This document shows positions 2,453 through 20,008 of a stretch of 64,000 nucleotides of DNA, one piece after another; positions within the stretch are counted from its first letter, which is position 1, and every line of letters starts with the position of its first letter. The notes under the pieces are model-generated. The model was not told the DNA's origin, ran no database searches, and saw only the letters and a list, made by a program, of their open reading frames with translations. The translations under genes were made by a program, and so were the position numbers. This DNA comes from a virus: the IMG/VR virus record IMGVR_UViG_3300027917_000041, positions 8,451 to 72,450 of that record. One strand, given 5' to 3'.

Positions 2453-3211
2453 TTATCCATTTAGCTTTCTCCTACCAAAGTTAGCCGCAAATGCTAGGAA
2501 TGTAAGTACAATTCCCAATACAGCAAACTGCATTAGCCCAAAGCCTTCGTCAAAGAAACCAGTTTTAGGTAACTCTTGTGGAGGCGTTGGAGTTGGCTTT
2601 TTCTTCTCTGGTGGGTTTGTAGGTGTCTCCGATGGCTCATTTGTCTGTGTTGGTGTCGTAGTAGGAGAGTCTGTCGGAGCTGGTGTCTCCGTAACCTCGG
2701 GCGTGTTTGTAGGTTTAGGAGTTGGTGTCCAAGTTTCCTCGGGATTTTCAGTAGGAGTGGGTGTCTCCGATGGTTCATTTGTTGGTGTTGGTGTTGGTGG
2801 AACTGGTGTTTCTGTAGGAGTTTCCGTTGGAACTTCTGTAGGAGTTTCCGTTGGAACTTCTGTAGCTGTTGGCGTAATCGGTGTAGCTGTTGGTGTGACA
2901 CCTAGTGGCTTAAACTTAGCCTCCAAATGTGAAATCTGCTGACAGGTAGGGCTAGGGTATCCAGTCAAACTTACAGACGCTTTTGTTCTAGCCCCATTAA
3001 AGTTAGCAGTGTAGCAACCATCTGTACCACTTTCAGTAAAGCCAAAACAACCTTGTCCAGCTTTTACCCATATCTTTTGTATTGTGTAGCCATCTGGGGC
3101 TAATGCTGGATTGCCTACATGCTCACCACCGCAGTGACTAGCTTCAGCTTCACCAAATGCCACCCCAAGAAACGCTATTACTAGTAAACTTGCTATTAAT
3201 AGTTTCTTCAT
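2453..3211 (-). CDS. Secreted Pro/Thr-rich surface protein with LPXTG sortase signal
   Basis: N-terminal signal peptide (MKKLLIASLLVIAFLGVAFGEAEA), small Cys-containing domain, about 110-aa PT/TE repeat stalk, LPKTG, hydrophobic TM, basic tail RRK. Confidence 0.85.
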   Translation of the reverse strand: MKKLLIASLLVIAFLGVAFGEAEASHCGGEHVGNPALAPDGYTIQKIWVKAGQGCFGFTESGTDGCYTANFNGARTKASVSLTGYPSPTCQQISHLEAKFKPLGVTPTATPITPTATEVPTETPTEVPTETPTETPVPPTPTPTNEPSETPTPTENPEETWTPTPKPTNTPEVTETPAPTDSPTTTPTQTNEPSETPTNPPEKKKPTPTPPQELPKTGFFDEGFGLMQFAVLGIVLTFLAFAANFGRRKLNG

Positions 3212-5488: not shown

Positions 5489-6184
5489 CTATATACTTGT
5501 TCTAATCCACTTACGGAAGGGCATAATCTTATCATGCAATGCCTCTAAGATTTCCACATCCGCTACGTTATGGTCAATAACTTTCTTTAAAGCTTTAGTA
5601 TTTCCATACTTAGCCATTCTCCAATCACGTCTTTCGATTGGTGTTTTACCGCTAATACCAAAATAGTCACAAGCATTGTCTAAGCTATTACGTGACAAGT
5701 GGAACTTATTTCGGATTGTGTAGTAAAGGTCATGGTGGTAATATGTACCATATGCAGGAAAATCCAAACCATAGTGTACAGCCTTAGCACGAATGAATGG
5801 TAAATCAAAACCTGTACCATAATATGTAACCCAAATCTTGTGCTTACTTAGTTCTTCAATACAAGCTTCCACCAAATCCTTATCTACAGCTTCTTCCCTA
5901 AATAGTTCTTTCTTGGTAATAACCCCGTAAGTTGTTATTCCGTCTTTTGGTCTAATAGCCCAACTTAACATCGTAGCCCAATCTACTTTCAGACCATCAG
6001 CTTCAATGTCAAAATAACAAAAGTTGTGTTCTGGATATGTCCACCAAGGCGTTCTAGTGATCCGTTCCCATTCCCTATCATTCTCAAAATCGAATTTTAC
6101 TTTCCCCTCAGCGAAACACTTAGGATGTTCTTCAAAAGTGTGACGGTGTATACATCTTACGTCTTTAGTACGTTGCTTTGTCAT
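5489..6184 (-). CDS. DnaQ/RNase H-fold 3'-5' exonuclease (RNase_H_2/YprB-like)
   Basis: ExoI FDIE, ExoII YYG..FDLPF, ExoIII HNVADV. Confidence 0.85.
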   Translation of the reverse strand: MTKQRTKDVRCIHRHTFEEHPKCFAEGKVKFDFENDREWERITRTPWWTYPEHNFCYFDIEADGLKVDWATMLSWAIRPKDGITTYGVITKKELFREEAVDKDLVEACIEELSKHKIWVTYYGTGFDLPFIRAKAVHYGLDFPAYGTYYHHDLYYTIRNKFHLSRNSLDNACDYFGISGKTPIERRDWRMAKYGNTKALKKVIDHNVADVEILEALHDKIMPFRKWIRTSI

Positions 6185-6704
6185 TTATTAATCTCCTAAT
6201 CCGAGTCCTGCGAGAATTTTGCATGTACCGTAATACCTTATTTCTTTGTTTTTCATCTAAATTGTATTTATCACTCATATACTTTAGGTATCCTGCATCG
6301 GTAAAGTGTCCTTGCAGCTCGTATGATATTTTATTACACGTAGTAGAAAACCTTCTTATCAATAAATTTACGTCGGTCTGCTCTCTATGTGCCATTTCAA
6401 CTAGGCTATCACCACTGGATAACACATTTAGTACTTCGATATCTAGTAGGTCTATTTCTTTTTGCTTATACAGTTCCTTCACAGCCTTTTCGACCATTAG
6501 AATATCATTAAACATGGGATTGTACAAATCAGTATCTATAAAAACCCTAACATGTGCATCTAAGCCTGACATACCGCCAACTTTATTCAGTATTCGTAAA
6601 GCGTCAGGACTTTCCCCATCGTCGGACTCAATTATAAATCCGTCACTAAACTGTTGTTTTATACGTTCTCTATCTAATACCAGTGATTCTACATACCAAG
6701 CCAT
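6165..6704 (-). CDS. Hypothetical protein, possibly DNA-binding/sigma-like
   Basis: ORF track; possible HTH-like segment (GDSLVEMAHREQTDVNLLIRRF). Confidence 0.5.
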   Translation of the reverse strand: MAWYVESLVLDRERIKQQFSDGFIIESDDGESPDALRILNKVGGMSGLDAHVRVFIDTDLYNPMFNDILMVEKAVKELYKQKEIDLLDIEVLNVLSSGDSLVEMAHREQTDVNLLIRRFSTTCNKISYELQGHFTDAGYLKYMSDKYNLDEKQRNKVLRYMQNSRRTRIRRLINDKATY

Positions 6705-11346: not shown

Positions 11347-12408
11347 TTAAGCCTCCTGTAATTCTTCTTCGTCTACCATCGGGGTTTCCTTCCCGATTGT
11401 ACTATTATAACACAATTCTTTGATTTTGTCAAGTAATTCACGATTCTCTAATAAAGCATTTGCGGCGTTATTAGCACCGTTTCCTAACTTTTCTCCGTCA
11501 AAACTGTACCAATTGCCTGATTTATTGATTATGCCAAGAGCAGATGCAAAATCTAATGCATCACGTCCCTCATCAATACCCATACCAAACCGTAACGGTA
11601 CAAAGCCTGTCATAAACGGTTTAGCAACCTTATTCTTTTTTATTGTAAACTTACTTAGAATACCAGTAGTTTCACTACCTTCCGTAATTGGACTACCTTT
11701 ACCCAAGAAGATAATAACCGAACATTGATGATACAAAGCATGACCACCCGGCATTGTGTAGCCACCCATGTATGAACCAATCTTATCCCTAACCTGATTT
11801 ACAAATAAGAAAGCCGTTCTTGATTTCTCTAACTTATAAGCATTTCTTGGCAGGAATTTAGCCATCATCCTAGCCAATAACGCTACGTTATCATCACCTA
11901 ACTTATCATCCTTCAACTTCTGTGGTGCAAGAGCACCCACGCTATCTAAGACTATCAAACCAAAATCCGTAGATTCTAAACCAGCTTCGGCAATCTCTAA
12001 GGATTGTTCTGCTGTTTCTGGTCTGATAATCGTAAGATATTCCGGGTCAAAACCACCAACAACTGAGTTTACATAGCTATAATCCAAACCACTTTCCACA
12101 TCAATGTACAATGCCCTTTCTTCAAGTTGCCGTATCATCTTAGCAATACTTAAAGAAATCGTAGTCTTACCCGAAGATTCAGCACCATAGATTGTTGTGA
12201 ACTTACGTCTAGGTAAACCACCAATACCGATAGCCATGTCTAAACTTATAGAACCTGTAGGTAACGGTTCGGCTACCTCAAATCCTTCTTCCTGAGTTAC
12301 AACATAACCAGCGTATTCACTTTGTATGAATTGATCAAAATCTAGTTTTTCTTTTCTTTTCAAATTACGCTCTCCATATATCCAACTCTTGAAATAGTCT
12401 ACAACCAA
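11347..12408 (-). CDS. recA: RecA/UvsX recombinase (true start probably about 20 codons downstream)
   Basis: TGSISLD.AIGIGGLP, YGAESSGKTT, VLDSVGAL, FVNQVR.KIG, PGG.AL, KNKVA.PF. Confidence 0.97.
   Translation of the reverse strand: MVVDYFKSWIYGERNLKRKEKLDFDQFIQSEYAGYVVTQEEGFEVAEPLPTGSISLDMAIGIGGLPRRKFTTIYGAESSGKTTISLSIAKMIRQLEERALYIDVESGLDYSYVNSVVGGFDPEYLTIIRPETAEQSLEIAEAGLESTDFGLIVLDSVGALAPQKLKDDKLGDDNVALLARMMAKFLPRNAYKLEKSRTAFLFVNQVRDKIGSYMGGYTMPGGHALYHQCSVIIFLGKGSPITEGSETTGILSKFTIKKNKVAKPFMTGFVPLRFGMGIDEGRDALDFASALGIINKSGNWYSFDGEKLGNGANNAANALLENRELLDKIKELCYNSTIGKETPMVDEEELQEA
11404..11432 (-). promoter_or_regulatory. sigma70-type promoter within recA 3' end
   Basis: CTTGACAAAATCAAAGAATTGTGTTATAAT: TTGACA-N17-TATAAT with TG. 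Confidence 0.75.
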
Positions 12409-12637
12409 AATCCTTTCTAGTTTCCAAGCCTATATCACTTAGATCATCATGACCAGCTGTAAAAGACGTAATGTTTGCCCCTCTTACACCTGAATTTTCA
12501 TGAATAGCTTTACAATATCCCCACTCTGTACTAGCATATTCCCACTTGGCACACAGACCACAACTATCTACTTTGCGACTTCTAAGATTCGATGTCATAT
12601 TTTGGCAACTCCTCAATATTCTCAGGAAATCCACCAT
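12365..12637 (-). CDS. Small Cys-containing hypothetical protein
   Basis: CGLC.....WGYC...FGC pattern. Confidence 0.5.
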   Translation of the reverse strand: MVDFLRILRSCQNMTSNLRSRKVDSCGLCAKWEYASTEWGYCKAIHENSGVRGANITSFTAGHDDLSDIGLETRKDFGCRLFQELDIWRA

Positions 12638-12800
12638 GCTCAGTCAGATATTCATCAATATTATCATCATAATTTGACAAAGTAATTCCTAATTCTTTAG
12701 CAAAATAAATAGGGTGTAAGCTATGATCTTGCATAATTAGCTCACCATCTTTATACAAACCTTGCCATTCGTCTACAATAAACCAAGTAAATTCACTCAT
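12582..12800 (-). CDS. Hypothetical protein
   Basis: ORF track. Confidence 0.55.
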   Translation of the reverse strand: MSEFTWFIVDEWQGLYKDGELIMQDHSLHPIYFAKELGITLSNYDDNIDEYLTEHGGFPENIEELPKYDIES

Positions 12801-13084
12801 GATCCAAACTCCTTAAATACTTTAATTGATATTACGGGTATATTATATTTAGAACTCATTTCATACAAATTGGTATCTACGGCAACTTCAACTTTCAAAC
12901 GTTCTTTGGTCACAGCTTCTTTCACCAACTTATTTAGATGATAAGAAGTGTCCATTATTTCTCCCCAAAGCTTCGTTTGACGTTCCTTTTCATGCTCACC
13001 CATAATCCTATTTACCCGTTCCTGTACACCTTCTTCCAGTTCTTCTTCCGGATACATATTTCCTACTACCATTAGTGCCTCCAA
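12797..13084 (-). CDS. Hypothetical protein
   Basis: ORF track. Confidence 0.55.
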   Translation of the reverse strand: MEALMVVGNMYPEEELEEGVQERVNRIMGEHEKERQTKLWGEIMDTSYHLNKLVKEAVTKERLKVEVAVDTNLYEMSSKYNIPVISIKVFKEFGS

Positions 13085-15000
13085 GTTTTAGATAACATAC
13101 TATCAGCTTTCGCAGGAATATCCTTAAGAAATACCTGCTCAGCTTCCTCCATTGTTGCAACCACGAACGCCTCAGCTTCTTCCGCTATACTTTCGTGTAC
13201 TTCCCACACACCTTCATCGTGTACGGTCAGCAATAGTTTAAATAAATCTCCGAAGGGGTTTCTATGATATATGTCTACCAAGGCTATCTTTAAAATGTCG
13301 GCAGACCCACCCTGAATAATAGTATTAATTCCCCTTCGGAGTACAGATGCTTTTATTTTTGCTTTTTCATCGCCATCCTCAAAGATTTCAGGTATGTCAA
13401 AATAACGCTTTCGACCAAAAGGCGTAATAGAGTAACCAAGTTCCCAAATCTTCTCACCTGCCAACTCAATGAATTTTGCGATATAGGGATATGCGGCAAA
13501 ATAAGCTTCCAAGTGTGCCTCTCCCTCGTATTGTGGTATACCAAAATTATACTCCAAACCATAGGCTGTAGAACCATAGACGATAGCAAAATTGATTGAT
13601 TTTCCTCTACTTCTCTGTTCCTTTGTAACAATGTCATATTCAACCCCATAAATATTTGATGCTGTCAACACATGAATATCCAACTCATTGTTATAAGCGT
13701 CAATAAATGCACGTTCATTTGCAACAGCACCCAATAAACGCAATTCTGCTTGGTTAAAGTCTACGGTTAATAAAAGATGATCCTTGCTTGCCTCGAAACA
13801 TTCTCTATAACGAGCCTCTGGATCATCTTCATTCTCTCCAGGTATCTGCTGTAAGTTGGGTTTTTCGCAACTCCAACGTCCGGATACTGTACCAAGTTGA
13901 TTAAATTGTGCATGTAACCTACCCGTTTTTGGGTTTATTTTATCAAGAAAATCCTCACCGTAGGAATTGATACGCTTTGAATACGGTTTGAATTCCAAAT
14001 AGTCACGAATAACTTCATGATGCTTAAATCGAGCCAATTCTTTTTTATTGGCACTAGGCACATAAACTTTACTATATGTCAATATCTCTTTGAACTGTGC
14101 AGGACTGTTTAAATTCAGCCACTCACGCACAATACCTGCTACAGTTTTTCTATCGGTAATCCCTTCCATTGGATCACGATCACGCTTTAGTTTTACCTGC
14201 AACTTTAGCTTGTCAACAACTGTCAAAGCGTCAGCGTCACCAACCAATAGTTTATCCAAAGCCGGGTTAATCAAAGTATCCTTTAGCTTTTCTTCCCACA
14301 CCTTTTGACGTTCAATAGCAGACGCAGTAATTTCCTTCCAAAGTTTTTGATTTACAGATACACCTTCAAGCTCCATCCAAGCAACTTGAGGCAATAACTC
14401 CATTTCTAAATCTGCTGTTTTGGTTAGGTTCTTTTCTTCTAGTTCAACACAAATACTTTCGTATAAGTCTACTAAGTTTAAAACGTCTTTTGCGGCATAC
14501 AAGTACATTTCCTGAGTTACGATTGTAGCACCAATGAAATCTTCTCGTACATCCTTTTCCATTACAATATCAAGATGCTTAAATAGCAATGATTGTAATG
14601 ATACAAACGGTCTACCAAGTCCGGTATTTGCCACCCCATCACCAATCATGGTATCGAAAACGTTCTCAATCCCTACACCTGTATTGGCTTTAATAACTTT
14701 TATATCAAATTTGATGTTATGTCCGACACATAGAGCGTCACTGTCTAGAAGTGCCTGTGCCACAAAAGTCATGTGGTTTTTCAGTCCTACAATATCAAAA
14801 ACAAAAACAGTTTCGCCTATAGATACTTGCATAAGTAGCCATCTGTCGTTAAACGGATCAAGCCCTGACGACTCAACATCTAATCCAACAATGTCGACAA
14901 AGGGCAAGGCTTGTACAAATTCTTCTATTCCAGCTGTATCCTCAACTAATCTTAGTTTCAATGTCCTAAAACCTCTACTATTCCTGCTCTCGGTATCCAT
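13072..15000 (-). CDS. polA: Family A DNA polymerase with 3'-5' exonuclease domain
   Basis: ExoI LDVE, GHNIKFD, YAAKD; polymerase SGRWSC..PNLQQIP, DFNQAELR, K.INF.IVYG, NT.IQG.SAD, VHDE; true start probably TTG near 14961. Confidence 0.97.
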   Translation of the reverse strand: MDTESRNSRGFRTLKLRLVEDTAGIEEFVQALPFVDIVGLDVESSGLDPFNDRWLLMQVSIGETVFVFDIVGLKNHMTFVAQALLDSDALCVGHNIKFDIKVIKANTGVGIENVFDTMIGDGVANTGLGRPFVSLQSLLFKHLDIVMEKDVREDFIGATIVTQEMYLYAAKDVLNLVDLYESICVELEEKNLTKTADLEMELLPQVAWMELEGVSVNQKLWKEITASAIERQKVWEEKLKDTLINPALDKLLVGDADALTVVDKLKLQVKLKRDRDPMEGITDRKTVAGIVREWLNLNSPAQFKEILTYSKVYVPSANKKELARFKHHEVIRDYLEFKPYSKRINSYGEDFLDKINPKTGRLHAQFNQLGTVSGRWSCEKPNLQQIPGENEDDPEARYRECFEASKDHLLLTVDFNQAELRLLGAVANERAFIDAYNNELDIHVLTASNIYGVEYDIVTKEQRSRGKSINFAIVYGSTAYGLEYNFGIPQYEGEAHLEAYFAAYPYIAKFIELAGEKIWELGYSITPFGRKRYFDIPEIFEDGDEKAKIKASVLRRGINTIIQGGSADILKIALVDIYHRNPFGDLFKLLLTVHDEGVWEVHESIAEEAEAFVVATMEEAEQVFLKDIPAKADSMLSKTWRH

Positions 15001-15413
15001 ACGATCTCTACTTGATCTTTGAATTCACGAGACTTAACCCGGCTATACAATTTTCTAGCTCGTTTGTTGAGCTTTTTTAGTATCGGGTTGTTAACCTTCC
15101 ATCCATTTACCGTCTGTTTCACGGTTAGTTTACTATCACAGTAGATAGTCCACTTTGTATTTCTGTGGTGTTTCATGTAAAAATTGACATACTCTAGGAG
15201 TTTAATCATAGATTCATACTCTGCTTGGTTGCTAGTCTTTGAGTCTAAGTTAAAAGTTTCTGACCTAATCAATTCATCCTTTCCAAATACTGCAAAACTT
15301 CCATAAGCATCAGAGTGTGTCTTATTATTACAGCCACCATCTACGTAAGCTGTGATGTTTCTCAAATTTTCTGCCTCCTCGGACTGAGGAGCACTTCTAA
15401 AACTAATATCCAT
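14958..15413 (-). CDS. rnhA: Ribonuclease HI
   Basis: YVDGG, TSNQAEY, CDSKL, WIPR catalytic motifs. Confidence 0.88.
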   Translation of the reverse strand: MDISFRSAPQSEEAENLRNITAYVDGGCNNKTHSDAYGSFAVFGKDELIRSETFNLDSKTSNQAEYESMIKLLEYVNFYMKHHRNTKWTIYCDSKLTVKQTVNGWKVNNPILKKLNKRARKLYSRVKSREFKDQVEIVWIPRAGIVEVLGH

Positions 15414-15419
15414 GGCTTA

Positions 15420-15448
15420 ATTATACCATGGATTTAGTGTTTTGTCAA
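15420..15448 (-). promoter_or_regulatory. sigma70-type promoter for replication genes
   Basis: CTTGACAAAACACTAAATCCATGGTATAAT; ATG 6 nt after -10. Confidence 0.85.
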
Positions 15449-15459
15449 GTACTAATTTT

Positions 15460-15533
15460 AGGCATACCCAGCTGGACTTGAACCAGCACCGAGGGGTTTG
15501 GAGTCCCTAATGCTACCATTACACCACGGATAT
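15460..15533 (-). tRNA. tRNA-Trp(CCA), 3' end CCT
   Basis: Cloverleaf read manually; anticodon loop CTCCAAA. Confidence 0.9.
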
Positions 15534-15537
15534 GTAT

Positions 15538-15612
15538 AGGAGCGTGTGACAGGAGTCGCACCTGCACCGTATGGTTGGAAGCCACCCATGCTACTGTTAA
15601 CACCACACACGC
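15538..15612 (-). tRNA. tRNA-Gly(TCC), 3' CCT, non-canonical A18/G55
   Basis: Loop CTTCCAA; U73; T-loop TGCGACT. Confidence 0.88.
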
Positions 15613-15616
15613 ACTT

Positions 15617-15707
15617 AGGCGGAGAATACAGGGATCGAACCTGTACATCGGAGTTACCGACATCACCGTTTTCAAGACGGATAAGCACGCCAGCCTTGCG
15701 ACTCTCC
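15617..15707 (-). tRNA. tRNA-Ser(TGA), 3' CCT
   Basis: Loop CTTGAAA, long variable arm, G73. Confidence 0.88.
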
Positions 15708-15709
15708 GT

Positions 15710-15797
15710 AGGCGGAAGGTAGAGGGATCGAACCTCTGCATCCGGTTGGATGGTTATGGTTTAGCAAACCAGCGCATTACCACTCTGCCAACCTTCC
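15710..15797 (-). tRNA. tRNA-Ser(GCT), 3' CCT
   Basis: Loop TTGCTAA, long variable arm. Confidence 0.9.
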
Positions 15798-15800
15798 AAT

Positions 15801-15887
15801 AGGTCGCTATGGCAGGATTCGAACCTGCATGGACACATGCCCACCATGGTTTGAGCATGGCGTGTATACCAATTCCACCACACAGCG
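15801..15887 (-). tRNA. tRNA-Leu(CAA), 3' CCT
   Basis: Loop CTCAAAC, long variable arm. Confidence 0.9.
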
Positions 15888-15889
15888 AT

Positions 15890-15966
15890 AGGTGCTGAAC
15901 CCTAGACTCGAACTAGGAATCTTCCGCGTATCAGACGGATGCGTTAACCAGTTACGCTAGTCCAGC
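15890..15966 (-). tRNA. tRNA-Ile(GAT), 3' CCT
   Basis: Loop CTGATAC. Confidence 0.9.
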
Positions 15967-15969
15967 ATT

Positions 15970-16044
15970 AGGTGACTCTACAGGGGATTGAACCCTGATT
16001 CTCAGCTTGAGGGGCTGATGTCCTATCCATTAGACGATAGAGCC
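15970..16044 (-). tRNA. tRNA-Glu(CTC), 3' CCT
   Basis: Loop CCCTCAA. Confidence 0.9.
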
Positions 16045-16048
16045 ATAT

Positions 16049-16133
16049 AGGTGCTCTAGAGAGGAGTCGAACCTCTACGCCCGAAGGCACTTGGGTTTAA
16101 GTCAAGCGTGTCTGCCAATTCCACCACAAGAGC
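16049..16133 (-). tRNA. tRNA-Leu(TAA), 3' CCT
   Basis: Loop CTTAAAC, long variable arm. Confidence 0.9.
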
Positions 16134-16138
16134 ATTTT

Positions 16139-16325
16139 AGACCACCCGTAGGCAGGATTCTGTTCTATGCTATCATTTATCTTTGCACCAACCCGACTAT
16201 TATAGCGTAGCTCACCCGCTAAGTCTGTTTGGCTTGCTACCTAGGTAGTGCAAACGGCTTATGCCTCCTACCGTGAGCTAAGTAGTCCTGACCTTCCTCT
16301 GTTTCCAGCGATAGCTCGATGGTCT
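16139..16325 (-). ncRNA. rnpB: Minimal RNase P RNA (catalytic domain intact, S-domain nearly absent, no P18)
   Basis: CR-I GAGGAAGGUCAGGAC and CR-V AACAGAAUCCUGCCUA form P4 with the bulged U; P1 AGACCAUC/GGUGGUCU; P2 GCUAUCG/UGAUAGC; P3 CUG-GAAA-CAG; P5 CUAC/GUAG; P6 pseudoknot UAGCUCAC/GUGAGCUA; P15 GCCA/UGGU with GGGU; P16 GACU/AGUC; P17 UAGC/GCUA; CR-IV AGAUAAAUG. Confidence 0.92.
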
Positions 16326-16326
16326 T

Positions 16327-16401
16327 AGGAGTCCTAGGTGGGAGTCGAACCCACTCTACAGCGTTTTGCAGACGCTTTCCTAGCCATTCGGAATCTAGGA
16401 C
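16327..16401 (-). tRNA. tRNA-Cys(GCA), 3' CCT
   Basis: Loop CTGCAAA, U73. Confidence 0.9.
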
Positions 16402-16405
16402 ATTT

Positions 16406-16479
16406 AGGCTGAGGGTACTGGATTTGCACCAATGATACTTGGTTCAGAGCCAAGGGGTTTACTGTTAGCCTAACCCTCA
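16406..16479 (-). tRNA. tRNA-Gln(CTG), 3' CCT, non-canonical A18/G55
   Basis: Loop CTCTGAA; U1-A72; T-loop TGCAAAT. Confidence 0.87.
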
Positions 16480-16483
16480 GTAT

Positions 16484-16560
16484 AGGCGGTTACTACGAGA
16501 TTCGAACTCGCATATTCTTCCTTGACAGGGAAGCCCATTAACCAATTATGGTAAGCAACC
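16484..16560 (-). tRNA. tRNA-Asp(GTC), 3' CCT
   Basis: Loop CTGTCAA, G73. Confidence 0.9.
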
Positions 16561-16564
16561 ATTA

Positions 16565-16641
16565 TGGAGCTGAATACTGGATTCGAACCAGTACTTCTTG
16601 GTTACAAAGCAAGCGTGCTTGACCATTAACACTAATCCAGC
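16565..16641 (-). tRNA. tRNA-Thr(TGT), the only gene with encoded CCA
   Basis: Loop TTTGTAA; ends TCAGC-T-CCA. Confidence 0.9.
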
Positions 16642-16645
16642 TTGT

Positions 16646-16720
16646 AGGTGACATCTGACGGATTCGAACCGACACTTCCCTGATTGAAAGTCAGGTGTCC
16701 TTCCAGTAGACGAAGATGCC
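16646..16720 (-). tRNA. tRNA-Glu(TTC), 3' CCT
   Basis: Loop CTTTCAA. Confidence 0.9.
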
Positions 16721-16770
16721 ATACCGCAGGGCTTTCGCCCTGCACCCTGCCACGAATGGTCAGGGGTGAT

Positions 16771-16847
16771 AGGTGCAGGATACAGGACTCGAACCTGTGT
16801 TCTCTTTTTTGTAAGAAAAGCGATTTCACCAGCTAATCTAATCCTGC
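16771..16847 (-). tRNA. tRNA-Val(TAC), 3' CCT
   Basis: Loop CTTACAA. Confidence 0.88.
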
Positions 16848-16901
16848 AAATTGGTCTTGTTTTTGTAGCTTCTGGTACAAGACCGTAAACCTAGCTACCG
16901 C

Positions 16902-16977
16902 AGGTGGACAAGACGAGATTCGAACTCGTATTACTTCTGTGCAAGAGAAGTGTGTTCCCAATTGTCACTACTCGCCC
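16902..16977 (-). tRNA. tRNA-Ala(TGC), 3' CCT
   Basis: Loop CTTGCAC; G3:U70 identity pair. Confidence 0.9.
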
Positions 16978-16978
16978 A

Positions 16979-17055
16979 AGGTACTCCGTGGAGGATTTGA
17001 ACCTCCATCTCGTAGGTTAAGAGCCTAGTGGGTTAGCCGTTAACCCCAACGGAGT
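16979..17055 (-). tRNA. tRNA-Lys(CTT), 3' CCT
   Basis: Loop CTCTTAA. Confidence 0.9.
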
Positions 17056-17144
17056 ATGTACATCCAGTCTACGTTAATCGGAACCTCGTCCGATGCTTAT
17101 ATGCGTGTCCAGCGTAGACCAGTGAGAGCCGCTAAGCTCCCTAT

Positions 17145-17228
17145 AGGTGCGCCCGGAGAGAGTCGAACTCCCACAGCTTATAGCGGGTGGTTTACAGCCA
17201 CTTGGACTCGCCATTGTCCAGCAGACGC
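17145..17228 (-). tRNA. tRNA-Tyr(GTA), 3' CCT
   Basis: Loop CTGTAAA, long variable arm. Confidence 0.9.
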
Positions 17229-17231
17229 ATT

Positions 17232-17307
17232 AGGTAGCGGAGGACGGAGTTGAACCGACTTGGGACAGTTTATGAGACTGCCGAGTTTACCGAAACTCTA
17301 CTCCGCA
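17232..17307 (-). tRNA. tRNA-Met(CAT), initiator-like acceptor end, 3' CCT
   Basis: Loop CTCATAA; U1xU72 mismatch; A11-U24. Confidence 0.85.
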
Positions 17308-17311
17308 ATAT

Positions 17312-17390
17312 AGGTACTGGCACTTGGATTCGAACCAAGACCTTACAGTTTAAAAGACTGATGTGCTAGACCGTTAAACACCATACCAGT
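17312..17390 (-). tRNA. tRNA-Lys(TTT), 3' CCT
   Basis: Loop CTTTTAA. Confidence 0.9.
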
Positions 17391-17396
17391 ATATTT

Positions 17397-17470
17397 AGGT
17401 GTAGACCCCCGGAGTCGAACCGGGCTTGTCCGGGCTTCAACCGGATGCATAACCACTCTGCCAAGTCCAC
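17397..17470 (-). tRNA. tRNA-Phe(GAA), 3' CCT
   Basis: Loop TTGAAGC. Confidence 0.88.
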
Positions 17471-17474
17471 ATTT

Positions 17475-17550
17475 AGGTACTCGCACTAGGATTCGAACCT
17501 AGACTCAACCGTATATAAGACGGACGTGTTCACCATTACACTATGCGAGT
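17475..17550 (-). tRNA. tRNA-Ile(TAT), 3' CCT
   Basis: Stem CCGT/ACGG, loop CTTATAT, A73. Confidence 0.85.
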
Positions 17551-17554
17551 ATGT

Positions 17555-17629
17555 AGGCTGAGGGTGAAGGGGTCGAACCTCCATTTCAGGCTTCAAAGAC
17601 CTTAGTCTTTACCATTAGACGAACCCTCA
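17555..17629 (-). tRNA. tRNA-Gln(TTG), 3' CCT
   Basis: Loop CTTTGAA; U1-A72. Confidence 0.9.
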
Positions 17630-17637
17630 ATATTGAC

Positions 17638-17666
17638 ATTATAACACAAAAATTGATATTTGTCAA
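17638..17666 (-). promoter_or_regulatory. Internal promoter of the tRNA/RNase P array
   Basis: CTTGACAAATATCAATTTTTGTGTTATAAT; upstream of 22 tRNAs and the RNase P RNA. Confidence 0.85.
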
Positions 17667-17678
17667 GTACCAATTTCT

Positions 17679-17753
17679 AGGAGCATCTAGCAGGGGTCGA
17701 ACCTGCACTACTTGGTTCGTAGCCAAGTGGTCTATCCATTAGCCTATAGATGC
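17679..17753 (-). tRNA. tRNA-Arg(ACG), 3' CCT
   Basis: Loop CTACGAA; A20. Confidence 0.9.
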
Positions 17754-17756
17754 ATT

Positions 17757-17831
17757 AGGCGCAACCAAGAGGACTCGAACCTCTTCCATGGGCTTAGAAC
17801 ACCCTTATGCGATCCACTACACCATGGTTGC
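17757..17831 (-). tRNA. tRNA-Arg(TCT), 3' CCT
   Basis: Loop GTTCTAA; A20. Confidence 0.87.
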
Positions 17832-17969
17832 AATTTTATGTAAGATACGCCAAAATAGGTTATCTCGTTTCCAGATAGAAGTATGATCTTCTCTAAATCC
17901 CCATAGAAAATACCAGTCTATCTTAATACCACCTTTCTTGCGTTTGCTTACCTTACCAATTTTTGTCAT

Positions 17970-18044
17970 AGGCACTCAGGGGCGGGGTCGAACCACCGTC
18001 ACCACGGTTAACAGCCGTGTGCATTACCATTATGCTACCCGAGT
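17970..18044 (-). tRNA. tRNA-Asn(GTT), 3' CCT
   Basis: Loop CTGTTAA, G73. Confidence 0.9.
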
Positions 18045-18048
18045 GTAT

Positions 18049-18125
18049 AGGGGTAATCGGTGAGTCTCGAACTCACTATAACTGTGTTCACAGCACAGCG
18101 TCGCACCAGTTTGACTTCGATCACC
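18049..18125 (-). tRNA. tRNA-His(GTG) with encoded G-1:C73, 3' CCT
   Basis: Loop CTGTGAA; 8-bp acceptor. Confidence 0.9.
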
Positions 18126-18129
18126 ATAT

Positions 18130-18214
18130 AGGTGCTTCTCGTGGGAGTCGAACCCACATGAGTCTCCTCACTAGTTTCTAAGACTAGAGCGTATACCAAT
18201 TCCGCCAGAGAAGC
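18130..18214 (-). tRNA. tRNA-Leu(TAG), 3' CCT
   Basis: Loop CTTAGAA, long variable arm. Confidence 0.9.
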
Positions 18215-18216
18215 AT

Positions 18217-18290
18217 AGGTCAAGGTGAGAGGAATCGAACCTCTTCCGCAGAGTCCCAAACTCCGTGTGCGGCCATTACACCACACCCTG
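18217..18290 (-). tRNA. tRNA-Pro(TGG), 3' CCT
   Basis: Loop TTTGGGA; C1-G72. Confidence 0.9.
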
Positions 18291-18452
18291 TAGATATCCA
18301 CCTTTGTCATATTTAGCAAGGCAAAAGGTTTGATGAGTGGAAAATCCTTGTTGGCTGTAAGCCTCTTGTATATATTTATATATACAAGCTATTAATTAAT
18401 TATTTAATTAACTATTTAATTAATATATTAACTCTGTAGTTAATTGCTCTTA

Positions 18453-18481
18453 ATTATACCATAAAAAGTTGCATTTGTCAA
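18453..18481 (-). promoter_or_regulatory. Promoter at head of tRNA array
   Basis: CTTGACAAATGCAACTTTTTATGGTATAAT. Confidence 0.85.
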
Positions 18482-18527
18482 GCTTTTTAGATTAAAGGAA
18501 CATTAGAGAATTCTCATATTCAATAGC

Positions 18528-18556
18528 TTGACTTTTAGGACAATTTGTGGTATAAT
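18528..18556 (+). promoter_or_regulatory. Divergent rightward promoter
   Basis: TTGACT-N17-TATAAT with TG (CTTGACTTTTAGGACAATTTGTGGTATAAT). Confidence 0.8.
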
Positions 18557-18626
18557 AGTATATACCAATTGTTAATGTACAAGTGCTTTTGTAAGCATAG
18601 TACAATTATAACACAGAATAGGGAGT

Positions 18627-18863
18627 TTGTCAAGAGGCAATTTTATGATAGAACCGGATACATGGGAATACCACTTTTACGATCATGATAAGGATGATCC
18701 TGATTGCTTTATGTGTCAAACTGGCATGGGCTATCCAATAAAGTGCGATGAATGTGGAGGTTTAATTCATAGACAGGTGGTAGGAATTGCGGCTTATGAT
18801 TATCCCACAAGTTACTTTGTCATCTTTAGATGTGATTTGTGTGGAAAGGAGTGGGAAGAATGA
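18627..18863 (+). CDS. Small Cys-rich zinc-binding protein
   Basis: CFMC, CDEC, CDLC. Confidence 0.6.
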   Translation: MSRGNFMIEPDTWEYHFYDHDKDDPDCFMCQTGMGYPIKCDECGGLIHRQVVGIAAYDYPTSYFVIFRCDLCGKEWEE

Positions 18864-19063
18864 AAGATTATCATGAATTTTCGGTAGATTTAGATGATGC
18901 TATTGGTAATGACAATTACGTTTATGGTCAGCTCGATTATCAAGATACAAAGATTATGTTCTGGATTATCAACGGATACGAGGAGGCGGCTTGTTGGTTC
19001 ACCAAAGAACAGGCTGAAATGGTAATATCCGGTTTACAGGATTTGGTGAATAGACTAAAATGA
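18860..19063 (+). CDS. Hypothetical protein
   Basis: Start MKDYHEF overlapping previous stop (ATGA). Confidence 0.55.
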   Translation: MKDYHEFSVDLDDAIGNDNYVYGQLDYQDTKIMFWIINGYEEAACWFTKEQAEMVISGLQDLVNRLK

Positions 19064-19080
19064 TGCGGAGACTTTAGATA

Positions 19081-19314
19081 ATGGCTATTAAGAAAGGTGA
19101 TAGGTACGTTTGTTATTACTGTAACAGGCGTTATGAAACCAACAAAGAAGCTAACAAATGTACAGAATCCCATCAACTTATTTATGTGGGTTTGACGGAG
19201 GCTGATATTAGATCAATAATCAATTTTATGCATACAAAAAGGGAGGAAGTTTTGACGGAAGGTGCGGTCAAACAATTTATGAAATTCAATACCCTTAAGC
19301 AAAGGCTAAGATGA
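19081..19314 (+). CDS. C2HC/C2H2-like zinc-finger protein
   Basis: YVCYYCNRRY......C..SH. Confidence 0.6.
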   Translation: MAIKKGDRYVCYYCNRRYETNKEANKCTESHQLIYVGLTEADIRSIINFMHTKREEVLTEGAVKQFMKFNTLKQRLR

Positions 19315-19592
19315 CAGGGCTTGAACACTTTATATTTCATCAAAGTGGTTGGGCTTCACTGCTAATAGCCTTTTTTTGCATTATAGGAGTTGGTAAAGCT
19401 CTTTGGGATTTTTCAGAATCTATTTTTAATGGCGATCCATCACTTCTTACTAGTACTACAAAGTGTCCTAGATGTGATGGTACAGGTTTTTGGTCAATTA
19501 TCGATTTAGAAGCAGATTACGAAAGTGTCTGTCCACTATGTTCAGGAAAAGGATATATTTATGAACAAGAAGAAAAAGAGAAGGATAAATAA
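19311..19592 (+). CDS. Membrane-anchored protein with DnaJ-type zinc-finger repeats
   Basis: TM segment then CPRCDGTG and CPLCSGKG. Confidence 0.65.
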   Translation: MTGLEHFIFHQSGWASLLIAFFCIIGVGKALWDFSESIFNGDPSLLTSTTKCPRCDGTGFWSIIDLEADYESVCPLCSGKGYIYEQEEKEKDK

Positions 19593-19749
19593 GCGACCGT
19601 ACAGAGGAAATCGAAGTAAAAGAAAAGTAAGAGTGCCGGGATGGTCTGCTTGTAACAGAATGTATCAAAGAATAAAAGCTAAAATAACTGCTGACGAACA
19701 ACTAGAGGACTGGTTGAATGGTTACACTGAGGAGAGTGATTATGAATAA
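19561..19749 (+). CDS. Small basic hypothetical protein
   Basis: MNKKKKRRINKRPYRG... Confidence 0.45.
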   Translation: MNKKKKRRINKRPYRGNRSKRKVRVPGWSACNRMYQRIKAKITADEQLEDWLNGYTEESDYE

Positions 19750-20008
19750 TGCACTTTGGATGAACGAACTGGATAGGGAATTTGACAATGCCATGGAGTG
19801 TGAAAGGATTAGAAAAGAAATCTTTGAAATGTCAATAGATATTTTTGCTCACGCTGAATTAGATTGGGAATGGGATTGTGCCAATGCTTGTGAAGCTTCT
19901 TACGTAGCTGTAGAACTTTTGAGATTGCTAGGTTTGAGCGTACAAGATAGGGATGTACAAGCACATATAGCTAAACGTGTGAGGGAACTTTTGGAGGAAC
20001 TTTCGTGA
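19742..20008 (+). CDS. Hypothetical protein
   Basis: GAGGAG RBS before MNNALW. Confidence 0.55.
   Translation: MNNALWMNELDREFDNAMECERIRKEIFEMSIDIFAHAELDWEWDCANACEASYVAVELLRLLGLSVQDRDVQAHIAKRVRELLEELS

What the first reader, a model, noticed from the sequence alone, without database searches (positions are those of the whole stretch)
16139..16325. Phage-encoded minimal RNase P ribozyme (187 nt) embedded in the tRNA array
Seen: the minus-strand gap between tRNA-Cys and tRNA-Leu(TAA) folds into the RNase P catalytic domain. Both strands of P4 differ from the bacterial consensus (GAGGAAAGUCCGGG/CCCGGCUUA becomes GAGGAAGGUCAGGA/UCCUGCCUA), yet every pair and the bulged U are kept. P1, P2 (7 bp), P3 (GAAA tetraloop), P5, the 8-bp P6 pseudoknot, P15-P17 and CR-IV (AGAUAAAUG) are all present. 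Only about 30 nt lie between P6 and the P5 3' strand, so the specificity domain is essentially deleted; P18 is also absent. Known: bacterial RNase P RNAs are about 350-400 nt, and S-domain-less natural forms are the archaeal type T RNAs of Thermoproteaceae. Inference: the phage carries its own 5'-processing ribozyme for its tightly packed tRNAs. It may borrow host RnpA, since no rnpA-like gene is evident in this window.
Basis: partly seen in the sequence, partly recalled or inferred. Interest (0 to 1): 0.96.

Follow-up and report, generated by a model that had tools for sequence, protein, structure and literature searches.

The report
Phage-encoded miniature RNase P ribozyme gene
An uncultured marine-sediment phage carries, wedged between two of its 28 tRNA genes, a 187-base cut-down copy of RNase P RNA (the ribozyme that trims new tRNAs) that keeps the whole catalytic half and only a small stub of the half that reads the tRNA's shape.

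Summary
Window 16139-16325 (- strand) aligns end to end with Rfam RF00010, bacterial class A RNase P RNA (52.9-61.5 bits, E 1e-16 to 1e-20). That is below the 100-bit gathering score, so routine annotation misses it.

All 58 base pairs I modelled are standard pairs. They cover P1-P5, a P7-like stub, P15-P17 and the P4 and P6 pseudoknots. P18 is absent. The specificity domain is reduced to a 29-nt conserved stub.

I collected 43 distinct relatives from viral, metagenome and genome contigs. Across them, 93% of pair cells are paired, against 69% in shuffles and 31-45% when the partners are slid. Forty-seven of 58 pairs show compensatory changes. P4 and P6 were not in my search model and also covary.

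A natural strain variant has 8 differences in 683 bases. All 8 lie inside this RNA, and 7 of them leave the modelled pairing intact.

The contig holds no rnpA. Perfect sigma-70 promoters drive the array. Expression and catalysis are untested.

This scan had already noted such phage mini-RNase P RNAs on other DNA (78 notes, at least 70 genomes). Nine literature searches found no published description. Best reading: a working 5'-processing ribozyme for the phage's own pre-tRNAs, probably using host RnpA.

The parts
16139..16325 (-). Mini RNase P RNA gene, first to last paired base of P1 (187 nt). The Rfam and R1 envelopes run 16133/16135-16327/16328.
   Evidence: RF00010 global match; R1 202.4 bits (but this sequence is a seed of R1); all 58 modelled pairs are standard.
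16317..16325 (-). P1 5' strand. It pairs with 16139-16148, where one G is bulged.
   Evidence: 9 pairs; all 9 show changes on both sides in the family.
16310..16315 (-). P2 5' strand. It pairs with 16169-16174 (6 bp).
   Evidence: alignment; covariation.
16299..16308 (-). P3 hairpin: 3 bp and a GAAA tetraloop.
   Evidence: P3 length varies in relatives (10-26 nt).
16286..16299 (-). CR-I and the P4 5' strand (GAGGAAGGUCAGGA). The bulged U is at 16291.
   Evidence: P4 is 100% paired in 41 rows and 5 of 8 pairs are compensatory. P4 is not part of model R1.
16150..16163 (-). CR-V (ACAGAA, 16158-16163) and the P4 3' strand (UCCUGCCU, 16150-16157).
16273..16280 (-). P6 5' strand (UAGCUCAC). It pairs with 16208-16215 in the P17 loop, forming a pseudoknot.
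   Evidence: 8 complementary bases. In the family the outer 4 pairs are 94% paired and 4 of 4 are compensatory; the inner 4 are 62.5% paired.
16244..16272 (-). Specificity-domain stub: a P7-like 5-bp helix, an internal loop (GA / GUUUGCA) and a 3-bp hairpin.
   Evidence: 98.9% and 99.1% paired; 4 of 5 and 2 of 3 pairs are compensatory. GGAG is kept in 38 of 43 rows and A78 C79 in 38 of 43.
16237..16240 (-). P5 3' strand. It pairs with 16282-16285. It is followed by the invariant GCAA linker (16234-16237).
   Evidence: 97.7% paired; GCAA in 43 of 43 rows.
16187..16233 (-). P15 (16231-16233 with 16187-16189), P16/P17 (16195-16225), and the L15 loop with its GGU motif at 16191-16193.
   Evidence: GGU is in 42 of 43 rows and was not forced by the search pattern.
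16174..16182 (-). CR-IV (AGAUAAAUG). It follows P15 directly, so there is no P18.
   Evidence: 24 model positions of P18 are matched by 0 bases.
16328..16401 (-). tRNA-Cys. It ends 2 nt before P1.
16050..16133 (-). tRNA-Leu(UAA). It starts 5 nt (AAAAU) after P1, so an RNase P cut at its 5' end would also make the ribozyme's 3' end.
15461..18290 (-). Array of 28 tRNA genes, the presumed substrates.
17638..17666 (-). Perfect 12/12 sigma-70 promoter with TG, inside the array; the nearest one upstream of the ribozyme. Two more lie at 18453-18481 and 18605-18633.
   Evidence: a consensus scan, not proof of use.

Best explanation
The stretch is a phage gene for a miniature, bacterial type A-derived RNase P RNA.

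It is transcribed with the tRNAs from strong sigma-70-type promoters. The tRNA-processing cuts on either side release it. It then removes the short, mostly U-ended 5' leaders of the phage's 28 closely packed pre-tRNAs.

Catalysis would use the retained core: P4 with its bulged U, CR-I, CR-IV, CR-V and the GCAA linker. With the T-loop-reading domain gone, substrate binding would rest on the acceptor end. The L15 GGU motif would pair with the C74-C75 that every tRNA gene here encodes. The extended P6 pseudoknot would hold the domain together. The protein cofactor is most likely the host's RnpA.

Shown: homology, anatomy, selection on the structure, genomic context, and absence of a phage rnpA on the contig. 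Inferred: transcription, release, catalysis, the RnpA partner and the biological benefit (extra or host-independent processing capacity).
For: - RF00010 matches end to end (E 8.4e-16 to 7.1e-20). It is the only such match in the contig.
- All 58 modelled pairs are standard.
- MAFFT alignment of 16 relatives, made without any model: 94.2% of cells paired against 74.2% shuffled (0 of 500 shuffles reach it) and 34-45% slid. 39 of 58 pairs change on both sides.
- 43 distinct rows: 93.2% against 69.3% shuffled (0 of 500) and 31-45% slid; 47 of 58 pairs change on both sides.
- P4 and P6 were not in model R1. P4 is 100% paired with 5 of 8 pairs compensatory. The outer half of P6 is 94% paired with 4 of 4 compensatory.
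- Motifs not forced by my search pattern are kept: GCAA in 43 of 43 rows, L15 GGU in 42 of 43.
- In contigs of two other studies (X4, X5) a strain variant has 8 differences in 16018-16700. All 8 lie inside the RNA and none in the flanking tRNAs. Four are at unpaired variable positions, one is C-G to U-G, two make one compensatory G-C to A-U, and one breaks a pair.
- Substrates: ARAGORN's 3' ends show CC after the discriminator in 28 of 28 tRNAs (a script scored 27 of 28). N-1 is U in 21 of 28.
- Four perfect 12/12 promoters lie on the - strand.
- Published work on an engineered E. coli C-domain shows that it cleaves without the S-domain, needs a P6-like pairing, and does not need P18 once the S-domain is gone (PMC5839562, abstract and section 21 read). 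That is the same combination seen here.
Against: - No RNA run holding this phage was available, so expression is not shown.
- No activity data exist.
- The score is below Rfam's gathering score.
- P3 is only 3 bp, so binding of RnpA cannot be assumed.
- The contig is about 80% complete, so a phage-encoded protein partner on the missing part is not excluded.
- The link between L15 GGU and encoded CC is not general in the family. Five related loci (L007, L040, L042, L051, L055) encode no CC in 0 of 7-12 tRNAs yet keep GGU.
- Tight flanking by tRNAs is also not general. A tRNA lies within 15 nt upstream in 12 of 38 loci and downstream in 5 of 35.
- One of the 8 natural differences breaks a modelled P17 pair.
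- The conservation of CR-I, CR-IV and CR-V in my set was partly imposed by the pattern used to collect it.
Confidence: 0.72

Rival explanations
1. RnpA sponge or regulator. The RNA keeps the protein-binding core of RNase P RNA in order to capture host RnpA. This shuts down or retunes host tRNA maturation. The RNA itself would not be a useful catalyst.
For: There is no phage rnpA. The S-domain, which raises efficiency on pre-tRNA, is gone. PMC5839562 reports that the E. coli C-domain alone works with reduced efficiency (a 120-fold lower rate is quoted in section 21).
Against: Features needed for substrate handling and chemistry, rather than for protein binding, are kept: the L15 GGU in 42 of 43 rows, GCAA in 43 of 43, the bulged U, and a covarying P6. 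The gene sits among its presumed substrates.
Confidence: 0.1
2. A ribozyme with substrates other than tRNA 5' leaders. Having lost the tRNA elbow reader, it cuts hairpin-like or other non-tRNA targets, phage or host, that offer only an acceptor-like stem plus NCC.
For: S-domain loss removes tRNA-shape specificity. The C-domain cleaves model hairpin substrates (PMC5839562 abstract). In 18 of 40 family loci no same-strand tRNA lies within 500 nt, although many of those stretches are short.
Against: In this window the RNA lies 2 nt and 5 nt from tRNAs. All 28 tRNAs offer CC, and 21 of 28 have U at -1. 29 of 40 family loci hold tRNA genes in the fetched stretch.
Confidence: 0.08
3. A decaying relic of a captured host rnpB gene with no present function.
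For: The score is below the Rfam gathering score. Large parts of the model are missing. In the strain variant the RNA changes faster than the flanking tRNAs.
Against: The same reduced architecture recurs in 43 distinct sequences with 47 of 58 pairs compensatory. All 58 pairs are intact here. Seven of the 8 natural differences leave the modelled pairing intact.
Confidence: 0.03

Closest known systems
Bacterial type A RNase P RNA (rnpB, E. coli M1 RNA; Rfam RF00010)
   Same: Best and only Rfam clan match kept, aligned over model 1-367. It shares P1-P5, P15-P17 with the L15 GGU, the P6 pseudoknot, P4 with its bulged U, and CR-I, CR-IV and CR-V.
   Different: About half the size (187 nt against a 367-position model). 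P8-P14 with CR-II and CR-III are replaced by a 29-nt stub. There is no P18. P3 has 3 bp. The score is 52.9-61.5 bits against a gathering score of 100. It is encoded by a phage inside a tRNA array, and no rnpA accompanies it.
[quoted passage not shown]
   Same: A natural RNase P RNA that keeps the catalytic domain, has a degenerate specificity domain, and lacks P18. P10 ends in a small loop or is missing.
   Different: Type T has a 3-bp P2, a shortened P15 and archaeal protein partners (Pop5, Rpp30, Rpp29). This RNA has a 6-bp P2 and a bacterial L15/P16/P17, and its best match is the bacterial model. The resemblance is convergent reduction, not shared descent.
Engineered E. coli C-domain ribozyme (Eco CP RPR; PMC5839562, abstract and section 21 read)
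   Same: A type A catalytic domain without the S-domain. Activity depends on a P6-like pairing. P18 is dispensable once the S-domain is gone.
   Different: That RNA is a laboratory construct. This one is natural, keeps a conserved P7-like stub, has a longer P6 (7-8 bp) and a minimal P3. Its activity is untested.
Theta (HDV-like) ribozymes next to phage tRNA genes (PMC10879173; two passages read)
   Same: Phage-encoded ribozymes placed beside phage tRNA genes, proposed to make tRNA maturation less dependent on host RNases.
   Different: Theta ribozymes are small self-cleaving RNAs proposed for 3'-trailer removal. This RNA is a trans-acting RNase P homologue for 5' leaders.
Phage mini-RNase P RNAs noted earlier in this scan (for example e1-1907876, e1-6013108, e1-5988221)
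   Same: The same kind of object: an S-domain-poor RNase P RNA in phage tRNA clusters.
   Different: Those notes concern other genomes and are unchecked AI notes. This copy (187 nt) is the shortest of the 41 full-length rows I collected. That set was biased towards compact forms by my search pattern.

Membership tests
Bacterial type A RNase P RNA (RF00010) | Score at or above Rfam's gathering score (100 bits) | tested here: not met
   52.9 bits and 61.5 bits. The RNA is absent from the gathering scan.
Bacterial type A RNase P RNA (RF00010) | Significant end-to-end alignment to the family model | tested here: met
   Model 1-367, E 8.4e-16 to 7.1e-20.
Bacterial type A RNase P RNA (RF00010) | P4 helix with a bulged U, flanked by CR-I and CR-V | tested here: met
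   8 pairs plus the bulged U. P4 is 100% paired in 41 rows and 5 of 8 pairs are compensatory.
Bacterial type A RNase P RNA (RF00010) | CR-IV (AGAURAAUG) and the J5/15 GCAA linker | tested here: met
   GCAA is in 43 of 43 rows. CR-IV was part of my collecting pattern, so its conservation in the set carries no weight.
Bacterial type A RNase P RNA (RF00010) | P15-P17 with the L15 GGU motif and the P6 pseudoknot (these distinguish type A from type B) | tested here: met
Bacterial type A RNase P RNA (RF00010) | Specificity domain P8-P14 with CR-II and CR-III (the T-loop binding site) | tested here: not met
   About 140 model positions are replaced by 31 nt. Only a P7-like helix and one hairpin remain.
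Bacterial type A RNase P RNA (RF00010) | P18 | tested here: not met
   24 model positions are matched by 0 bases. 12 nt lie between P15 and P2.
Bacterial type A RNase P RNA (RF00010) | Cleaves pre-tRNA at +1 | not testable with these tools
No RNA run was listed.
Bacterial type A RNase P RNA (RF00010) | An RnpA (C5) protein partner encoded in the same genome | tested here: not met
   PF00825 gives no match at E<=1 in the 72,450-base record, which is about 80% complete. A host protein would have to serve.
[quoted passage not shown] | 3-bp P2, shortened P15, 2-nt P5/P15 linker (PMC3579882, section 4) | tested here: not met
   P2 has 6 bp and the linker is 3 nt (CAA after the P5 G).
[quoted passage not shown] | Degenerate S-domain and no P18 | tested here: met
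   This is analogy only, since the best clan match is the bacterial model.
Phage mini-RNase P RNA family (my model R1) | Full-length match to R1 with the GGAG...CG..UGCAC stub and the GGUGAGC-type P6 3' strand | tested here: met
   202.4 bits. This sequence is one of the 16 seeds, so the score is by construction. The stub and P6 motifs are shared with non-seed rows.

The most novel reading that the evidence does not exclude
The 187-nt RNA is a self-sufficient phage RNase P.

It would work without bacterial RnpA, either alone or with an unrecognised phage protein. It would recognise substrates only through the acceptor end (U at -1, and N73-C74-C75 against the L15 GGU). It would be freed from the pre-tRNA transcript by the same cuts it catalyses.

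Together with the 28 tRNAs that end in CCU, it would form a private tRNA-maturation system. That system would keep working when host RNase P is limiting, shut off, or of another architecture. The host looks monoderm (LPKTG sorting signal), so it may use a type B RNase P RNA.
Probability: 0.12. Interest if true: 0.95.

Novelty: new variant of a known kind. Interest (0 to 1): 0.85.

Why it matters
RNase P RNA is regarded as a strictly cellular, essential housekeeping ribozyme. A virus-borne copy extends the list of translation-related functions that phages carry.

It is also a natural experiment in minimisation. This copy is a bacterial-type ribozyme stripped to about 190 nt. It has lost the S-domain and P18 together and kept a strengthened P6. 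That is the combination laboratory truncations found workable (PMC5839562).

Such RNAs could serve several purposes:
- small, crystallisable or cryo-EM-friendly models of the RNase P core;
- tests of how substrate recognition works without the tRNA elbow;
- markers for phage tRNA arrays, since these RNAs score below Rfam's threshold and are missed by annotation.

A related copy sits in a cultured bacterium, Achromobacter anxifer LMG 26857, beside that genome's own full-size rnpB. This makes the question experimentally approachable.

Tried and rejected
Rfam gathering scan of the whole window: tRNAs only. The RNase P match appears only below the gathering score.

MFE folding of the gap: z = -1.97, and 7 of 200 shuffles fold as well. 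This is weak. It cannot represent the P4 and P6 pseudoknots, so I did not use it as evidence.

blastn against GenBank phages:
- With the window stretch: apart from tRNA matches, only the uncultured huge phages LR756501 and LR756503 matched (72% over 136 nt).
- The Rfam E<=0.01 scan of that locus (L002) found nothing. My model R1 later scored it at 108.5 bits.
- With L026: only LR756502.
- With L068: nothing.
- No cultured phage with a blastn-detectable copy was found.

Relatives of the phage by its DNA polymerase: 11 loci, at best 36-37% identity. None of L011-L021 had an R1 match at E<=0.01 in the stretches fetched. I therefore have no close phage relative other than a metagenome contig with an identical RNA (L065).

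Pattern hits that are not family members:
- L046 and L069 had no R1 match.
- L067 (30.2 bits), L053 (44.6), L010 (53.4) and L006 (58.4) are weak or of other architecture. They were nevertheless left in alignment A2 and in the counts.

Rows dropped: 11 loci whose core was identical to another locus (L024, L025, L041, L043, L047, L049, L052, L054, L059, L062, L066).

Expression: no RNA holder was listed for window 12000-20000.

PF00825 (rnpA) and PF01743 (CCA-adding enzyme): no match in the contig.

No other Rfam family was found in the larger gaps of the tRNA array at E<=0.1.

I considered reading the stub's internal loop as a kink-turn. By eye it does not fit the consensus as I recall it (7 nt, not 5, on the long strand). 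I dropped the idea.

I considered that L15 GGU retention goes with encoded CC throughout the family. Five loci encode no CC, so this was rejected as a general rule.

Literature. Searches found no paper describing a phage-encoded RNase P RNA. Term look-ups in four papers also gave nothing on this point:
- the 2024 RNase P review PMC11143913;
- the theta-ribozyme paper PMC10879173;
- two jumbo-phage reviews, PMC13282480 and PMC7824862.
The library lacks most subscription journals, and supplements were closed. A mention in a supplementary table of Rfam hits cannot be excluded.
Full report
**What is there.** ARAGORN finds 28 tRNA genes on the - strand at 15461-18290. All gaps between them are short except a few. 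The longest is 194 nt and lies between tRNA-Cys (16328-16401) and tRNA-Leu-UAA (16050-16133). The Rfam scan at gathering thresholds reports only tRNAs. A permissive scan of 16100-16360 gives one strong match: RF00010, bacterial class A RNase P RNA, at 16133-16327 (-). It covers model positions 1-367, scores 52.9 bits and has E 8.4e-16. The same match scores 61.5 bits in a 3.2-kb scan (E 1.3e-17) and in the search of the whole 72,450-base virus record (E 7.1e-20). It is the only such match in that record. The family's gathering score is 100 bits, so standard annotation would not call it.

**Anatomy.** I number the RNA from 16326 as position 1, so the window coordinate is 16327 minus the position. 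The helices, from the alignment and the check, are:
- P1: 2-10 with 179-188, one bulged G.
- P2: 12-17 with 153-158.
- P3: 19-21 with 26-28, closed by a GAAA loop.
- P4: 33-35 and 37-41 with 170-177; U36 is bulged.
- P5: 42-45 with 87-90.
- P6: 47-54 with 112-119, a pseudoknot into the P17 loop.
- A P7-like helix: 55-59 with 79-83. It encloses an internal loop and a 3-bp hairpin (62-64 with 69-71).
- P15: 94-96 with 138-140.
- P16: 102-105 with 129-132.
- P17: 106-110 with 120-124.

Further features:
- The L15 GGU motif is at 134-136, CR-IV at 145-153, and CR-V (ACAGAA) at 164-169.
- All 58 pairs are standard pairs.
- Against the Rfam consensus, three P4 pairs are changed on both strands while pairing and the bulged U are kept.
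- The 24 model positions of P18 are matched by 0 bases.
- About 140 model positions of the specificity domain are replaced by 31 nt.

**It is a phage.** The same contig encodes a large terminase, portal, tape measure and tail proteins. It also encodes a family A DNA polymerase, a DnaB-like helicase and a UvsX-like recombinase (PHROGs). The record is an IMG/VR virus contig, estimated 80% complete.

**Relatives.** I built a pattern from CR-I, CR-IV and CR-V with spacings near those seen here.
- The pattern found 8 loci in viral contigs, 45 in metagenome contigs and 3 in species-representative genomes.
- With the window this makes 57 matches and 44 distinct cores.
- One metagenome contig (L065) carries an identical RNA.
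- I aligned sixteen well-bounded sequences with MAFFT (A1) and built model R1 from my nested structure.
- R1 then matched 45 places (43 distinct rows) in 58 sources at E<=0.01. Thirty-nine rows scored 92.7 bits or more.
- Those rows include a copy in the 735-kb uncultured phage LR756501 (108.5 bits), which the Rfam scan had missed.
- Two pattern hits (L046, L069) did not match R1 and are chance or other RNAs.

**Selection on the structure.**
- On the model-free alignment A1, 94.2% of cells form standard pairs. The shuffled value is 74.2 +/- 1.0% (0 of 500 shuffles reach the observed value). When the 3' partners are slid by 1-3 columns the value is 34-45%. Thirty-nine of 58 pairs show changes on both sides.
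- On A2 (43 distinct rows, including the weak ones) the figures are 93.2% against 69.3 +/- 0.6% (0 of 500) and 31-45% slid. Forty-seven of 58 pairs change on both sides.
- A2 is fitted to the nested helices, so those counts lean towards them. P4 and P6 are pseudoknots that R1 does not contain, so they are independent tests.
- P4 is paired in 100% of 41 rows, with 5 of 8 pairs compensatory.
- The outer four pairs of P6 are 94% paired, with 4 of 4 compensatory. The inner four are 62.5% paired. The eighth pair exists in only 3 of 38 rows, of which this window is one.
- The P7-like helix is 98.9% paired (4 of 5 pairs compensatory). The stub hairpin is 99.1% paired (2 of 3 compensatory). Both are as well supported as the core.
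- Around the stub, GGAG (38 of 43 rows), C71 (38) and A78 C79 (38) are conserved. The S-domain is therefore not just deleted. A small conserved module of unknown role has replaced it.
- Conservation of CR-I, CR-IV and CR-V in this set is partly imposed by the collecting pattern and I give it no weight. The GCAA linker (43 of 43) and the L15 GGU (42 of 43) were not imposed.

**Natural variation of this very phage.** Six DNA runs hold at least 72% of the sampled words of window 12000-20000, and two of them may be the source. I laid contigs of four others on 15800-16700.
- One run is identical over 15800-16547.
- One run differs at two places in tRNA-Glu and nowhere in the RNA.
- Two runs from different studies share a variant with 8 differences over 16018-16700. 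All 8 lie inside the 187-nt RNA and none in the roughly 490 nt of tRNAs and spacers.

Mapped on the structure:
- Two differences change the stub hairpin's loop from AUAA to GAAA.
- One turns its closing C-G into U-G.
- Two fall at the two variable positions of the internal loop.
- Two convert G110-C120 of P17 into A-U.
- One breaks A107-U123, a pair that is already unpaired in 10 of 40 family rows.

The RNA evolves faster than its tRNA neighbours, but mostly in ways the structure tolerates. These are low-depth contigs (about 6-7x), so single differences could be errors. The same eight differences in two runs argue against that.

**Context that bears on mechanism.**
- Spacing: P1 starts 2 nt after the CC of tRNA-Cys, and tRNA-Leu starts 5 nt (AAAAU) after P1. 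The RNase P cut that matures tRNA-Leu would also make the ribozyme's 3' end. The 3' processing of tRNA-Cys would make its 5' end.
- How general this is: in the collected family a same-strand tRNA lies within 15 nt upstream in 12 of 38 loci and downstream in 5 of 35. One lies within 500 nt in 22 of 40 (many stretches are short). The tight fit is a feature of this phage.
- Promoters: four perfect 12/12 sigma-70 promoters with an extended -10 TG lie on the - strand. Two are upstream of the array, one is inside it (17666-17638, the nearest upstream of the ribozyme) and one is just after it. The ribozyme has no promoter of its own, so it is presumably co-transcribed with the tRNAs.
- tRNA ends: every tRNA gene has CC after the discriminator (28 of 28 by ARAGORN's ends; 27 of 28 by a script). 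The next base is U in 27 and A only in tRNA-Thr.
- The base before the mature 5' end is U in 21 of 28.
- From established work on bacterial RNase P (recalled, not tested here), the L15 GGU pairs with N73-C74-C75 of the substrate, and U at -1 is the preferred leader base. Both determinants are therefore offered by the substrates and kept by the ribozyme.
- This match is not a family rule. Eleven other family loci encode CCA in most tRNAs. Five encode no CC at all and yet keep GGU.
- The contig has no rnpA (PF00825) and no CCA-adding enzyme (PF01743).

**How it most likely works.** The retained parts are those that form the active site and bind the acceptor end. The lost parts (P8-P14 and P18) are those that read the T-loop and tie the two domains together. 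Mao et al. 2018 (PMC5839562; abstract and section 21 read) showed three things for E. coli. The C-domain alone cleaves, with reduced efficiency. Its performance depends on a P6-like pairing. P18 no longer matters once the S-domain is gone. The phage RNA shows the same logic in nature: S-domain and P18 are lost together, and P6 is lengthened to 7-8 bp. I therefore commit to a working trans-acting RNase P RNA that processes the phage's own polycistronic pre-tRNAs, most probably with the host's RnpA (confidence 0.72). Homology, anatomy, selection and context are shown. Transcription, release, catalysis and the cofactor are inferred.

**Rivals.**
- An RnpA sponge or regulator (0.10).
- A ribozyme redirected to non-tRNA targets (0.08).
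- A functionless relic (0.03). This one is contradicted by the covariation.

**Comparison with what is known.**
- By sequence it is a derivative of bacterial type A RNase P RNA. It fails three defining features of that family as curated: the gathering score, the S-domain with CR-II and CR-III, and P18. I file it as a new variant, not a plain member.
- It works like, but is not related to, the archaeal type T RNAs of Thermoproteaceae. Those differ in P2 length, P15, the linker and the protein partners (PMC3579882, section 4 read).
- At 187 nt it is the shortest of the 41 full-length rows I collected. That set is biased towards compact forms. Very small mitochondrial RNase P RNAs are known (recalled). 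I make no record claim.

**Novelty.**
- Nine full-text searches found no description of a phage-encoded RNase P RNA. Look-ups in a 2024 RNase P review, the theta-ribozyme paper and two jumbo-phage reviews also found none.
- The library omits most subscription journals, and supplements were closed.
- This scan itself has noted the same kind of RNA before on other DNA: 78 notes in at least 70 genomes, and look-alikes. Those are unchecked AI notes. I did not count them as evidence.

**A tractable system.**
- One family member lies in Achromobacter anxifer LMG 26857 (92.7 bits with R1, 82.7 with RF00010). It sits between tRNA-Pro and tRNA-Arg in a run of 32 tRNA genes within 8 kb.
- The same genome has its own full-size rnpB elsewhere, at 202.2 bits.
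- Only 1 of 121 genomes sampled from that bacterial family had an R1 match at E<=1e-10. This fits a mobile element.

Noticed in passing
window 15461-18290: 27 of 28 tRNA genes read N73-C-C-U (mostly CCUA) rather than CCA; only tRNA-Thr has CCA. Among 17 other tRNA-bearing loci I scored, none shows this. They encode either CCA or no CC at all. CCU keeps C74-C75 for the L15 GGU but needs A76 to be added after trimming.
   Followed up: partly
window 18605-18633, 18453-18481, 17638-17666, 15420-15448 (- strand): Four perfect TTGACA-17-TATAAT promoters, each with an extended -10 TG. They frame and subdivide the tRNA array. An 11/12 promoter at 18528-18556 points the other way.
   Followed up: partly
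window 2453-3211 (-): A 252-aa protein with a signal peptide, a long Pro/Thr/Glu-rich stalk, then LPKTG, a hydrophobic helix and a basic tail. This is a sortase sorting signal, which points to a monoderm (Gram-positive) host. If the host is a firmicute, its own RNase P RNA would be type B (recalled), unlike the phage's type A-derived copy.
   Followed up: partly
L068 1-8000 (Achromobacter anxifer LMG 26857; G001:C5): 32 tRNA genes lie within 8 kb of a cultured bacterium's genome, with a 216-223-nt mini RNase P RNA at 6075-6297. The genome's own full-size rnpB is on another contig. This is probably a prophage or another mobile tRNA island. I did not annotate the flanking genes.
   Followed up: partly
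L002 1492-1721 (GenBank LR756501, 735-kb uncultured phage): A 223-230-nt family member. It has a 41-nt insertion where P18 would be, against 12-14 nt in the others, so it may have kept or regained a P18-like hairpin. No tRNA lies within 1.4 kb on either side.
   Followed up: no
window 17832-17970 and 17056-17145 (- strand): Two further long gaps (139 and 90 nt) in the tRNA array have no Rfam match at E<=0.1. Their content is unexplained.
   Followed up: partly
runs X4 and X5, loose ends at 16171: A short contig joins 16171-16205 to different sequence containing another CR-V/P4-like string. The same samples therefore probably hold a second, related mini RNase P RNA from another phage.
   Followed up: no
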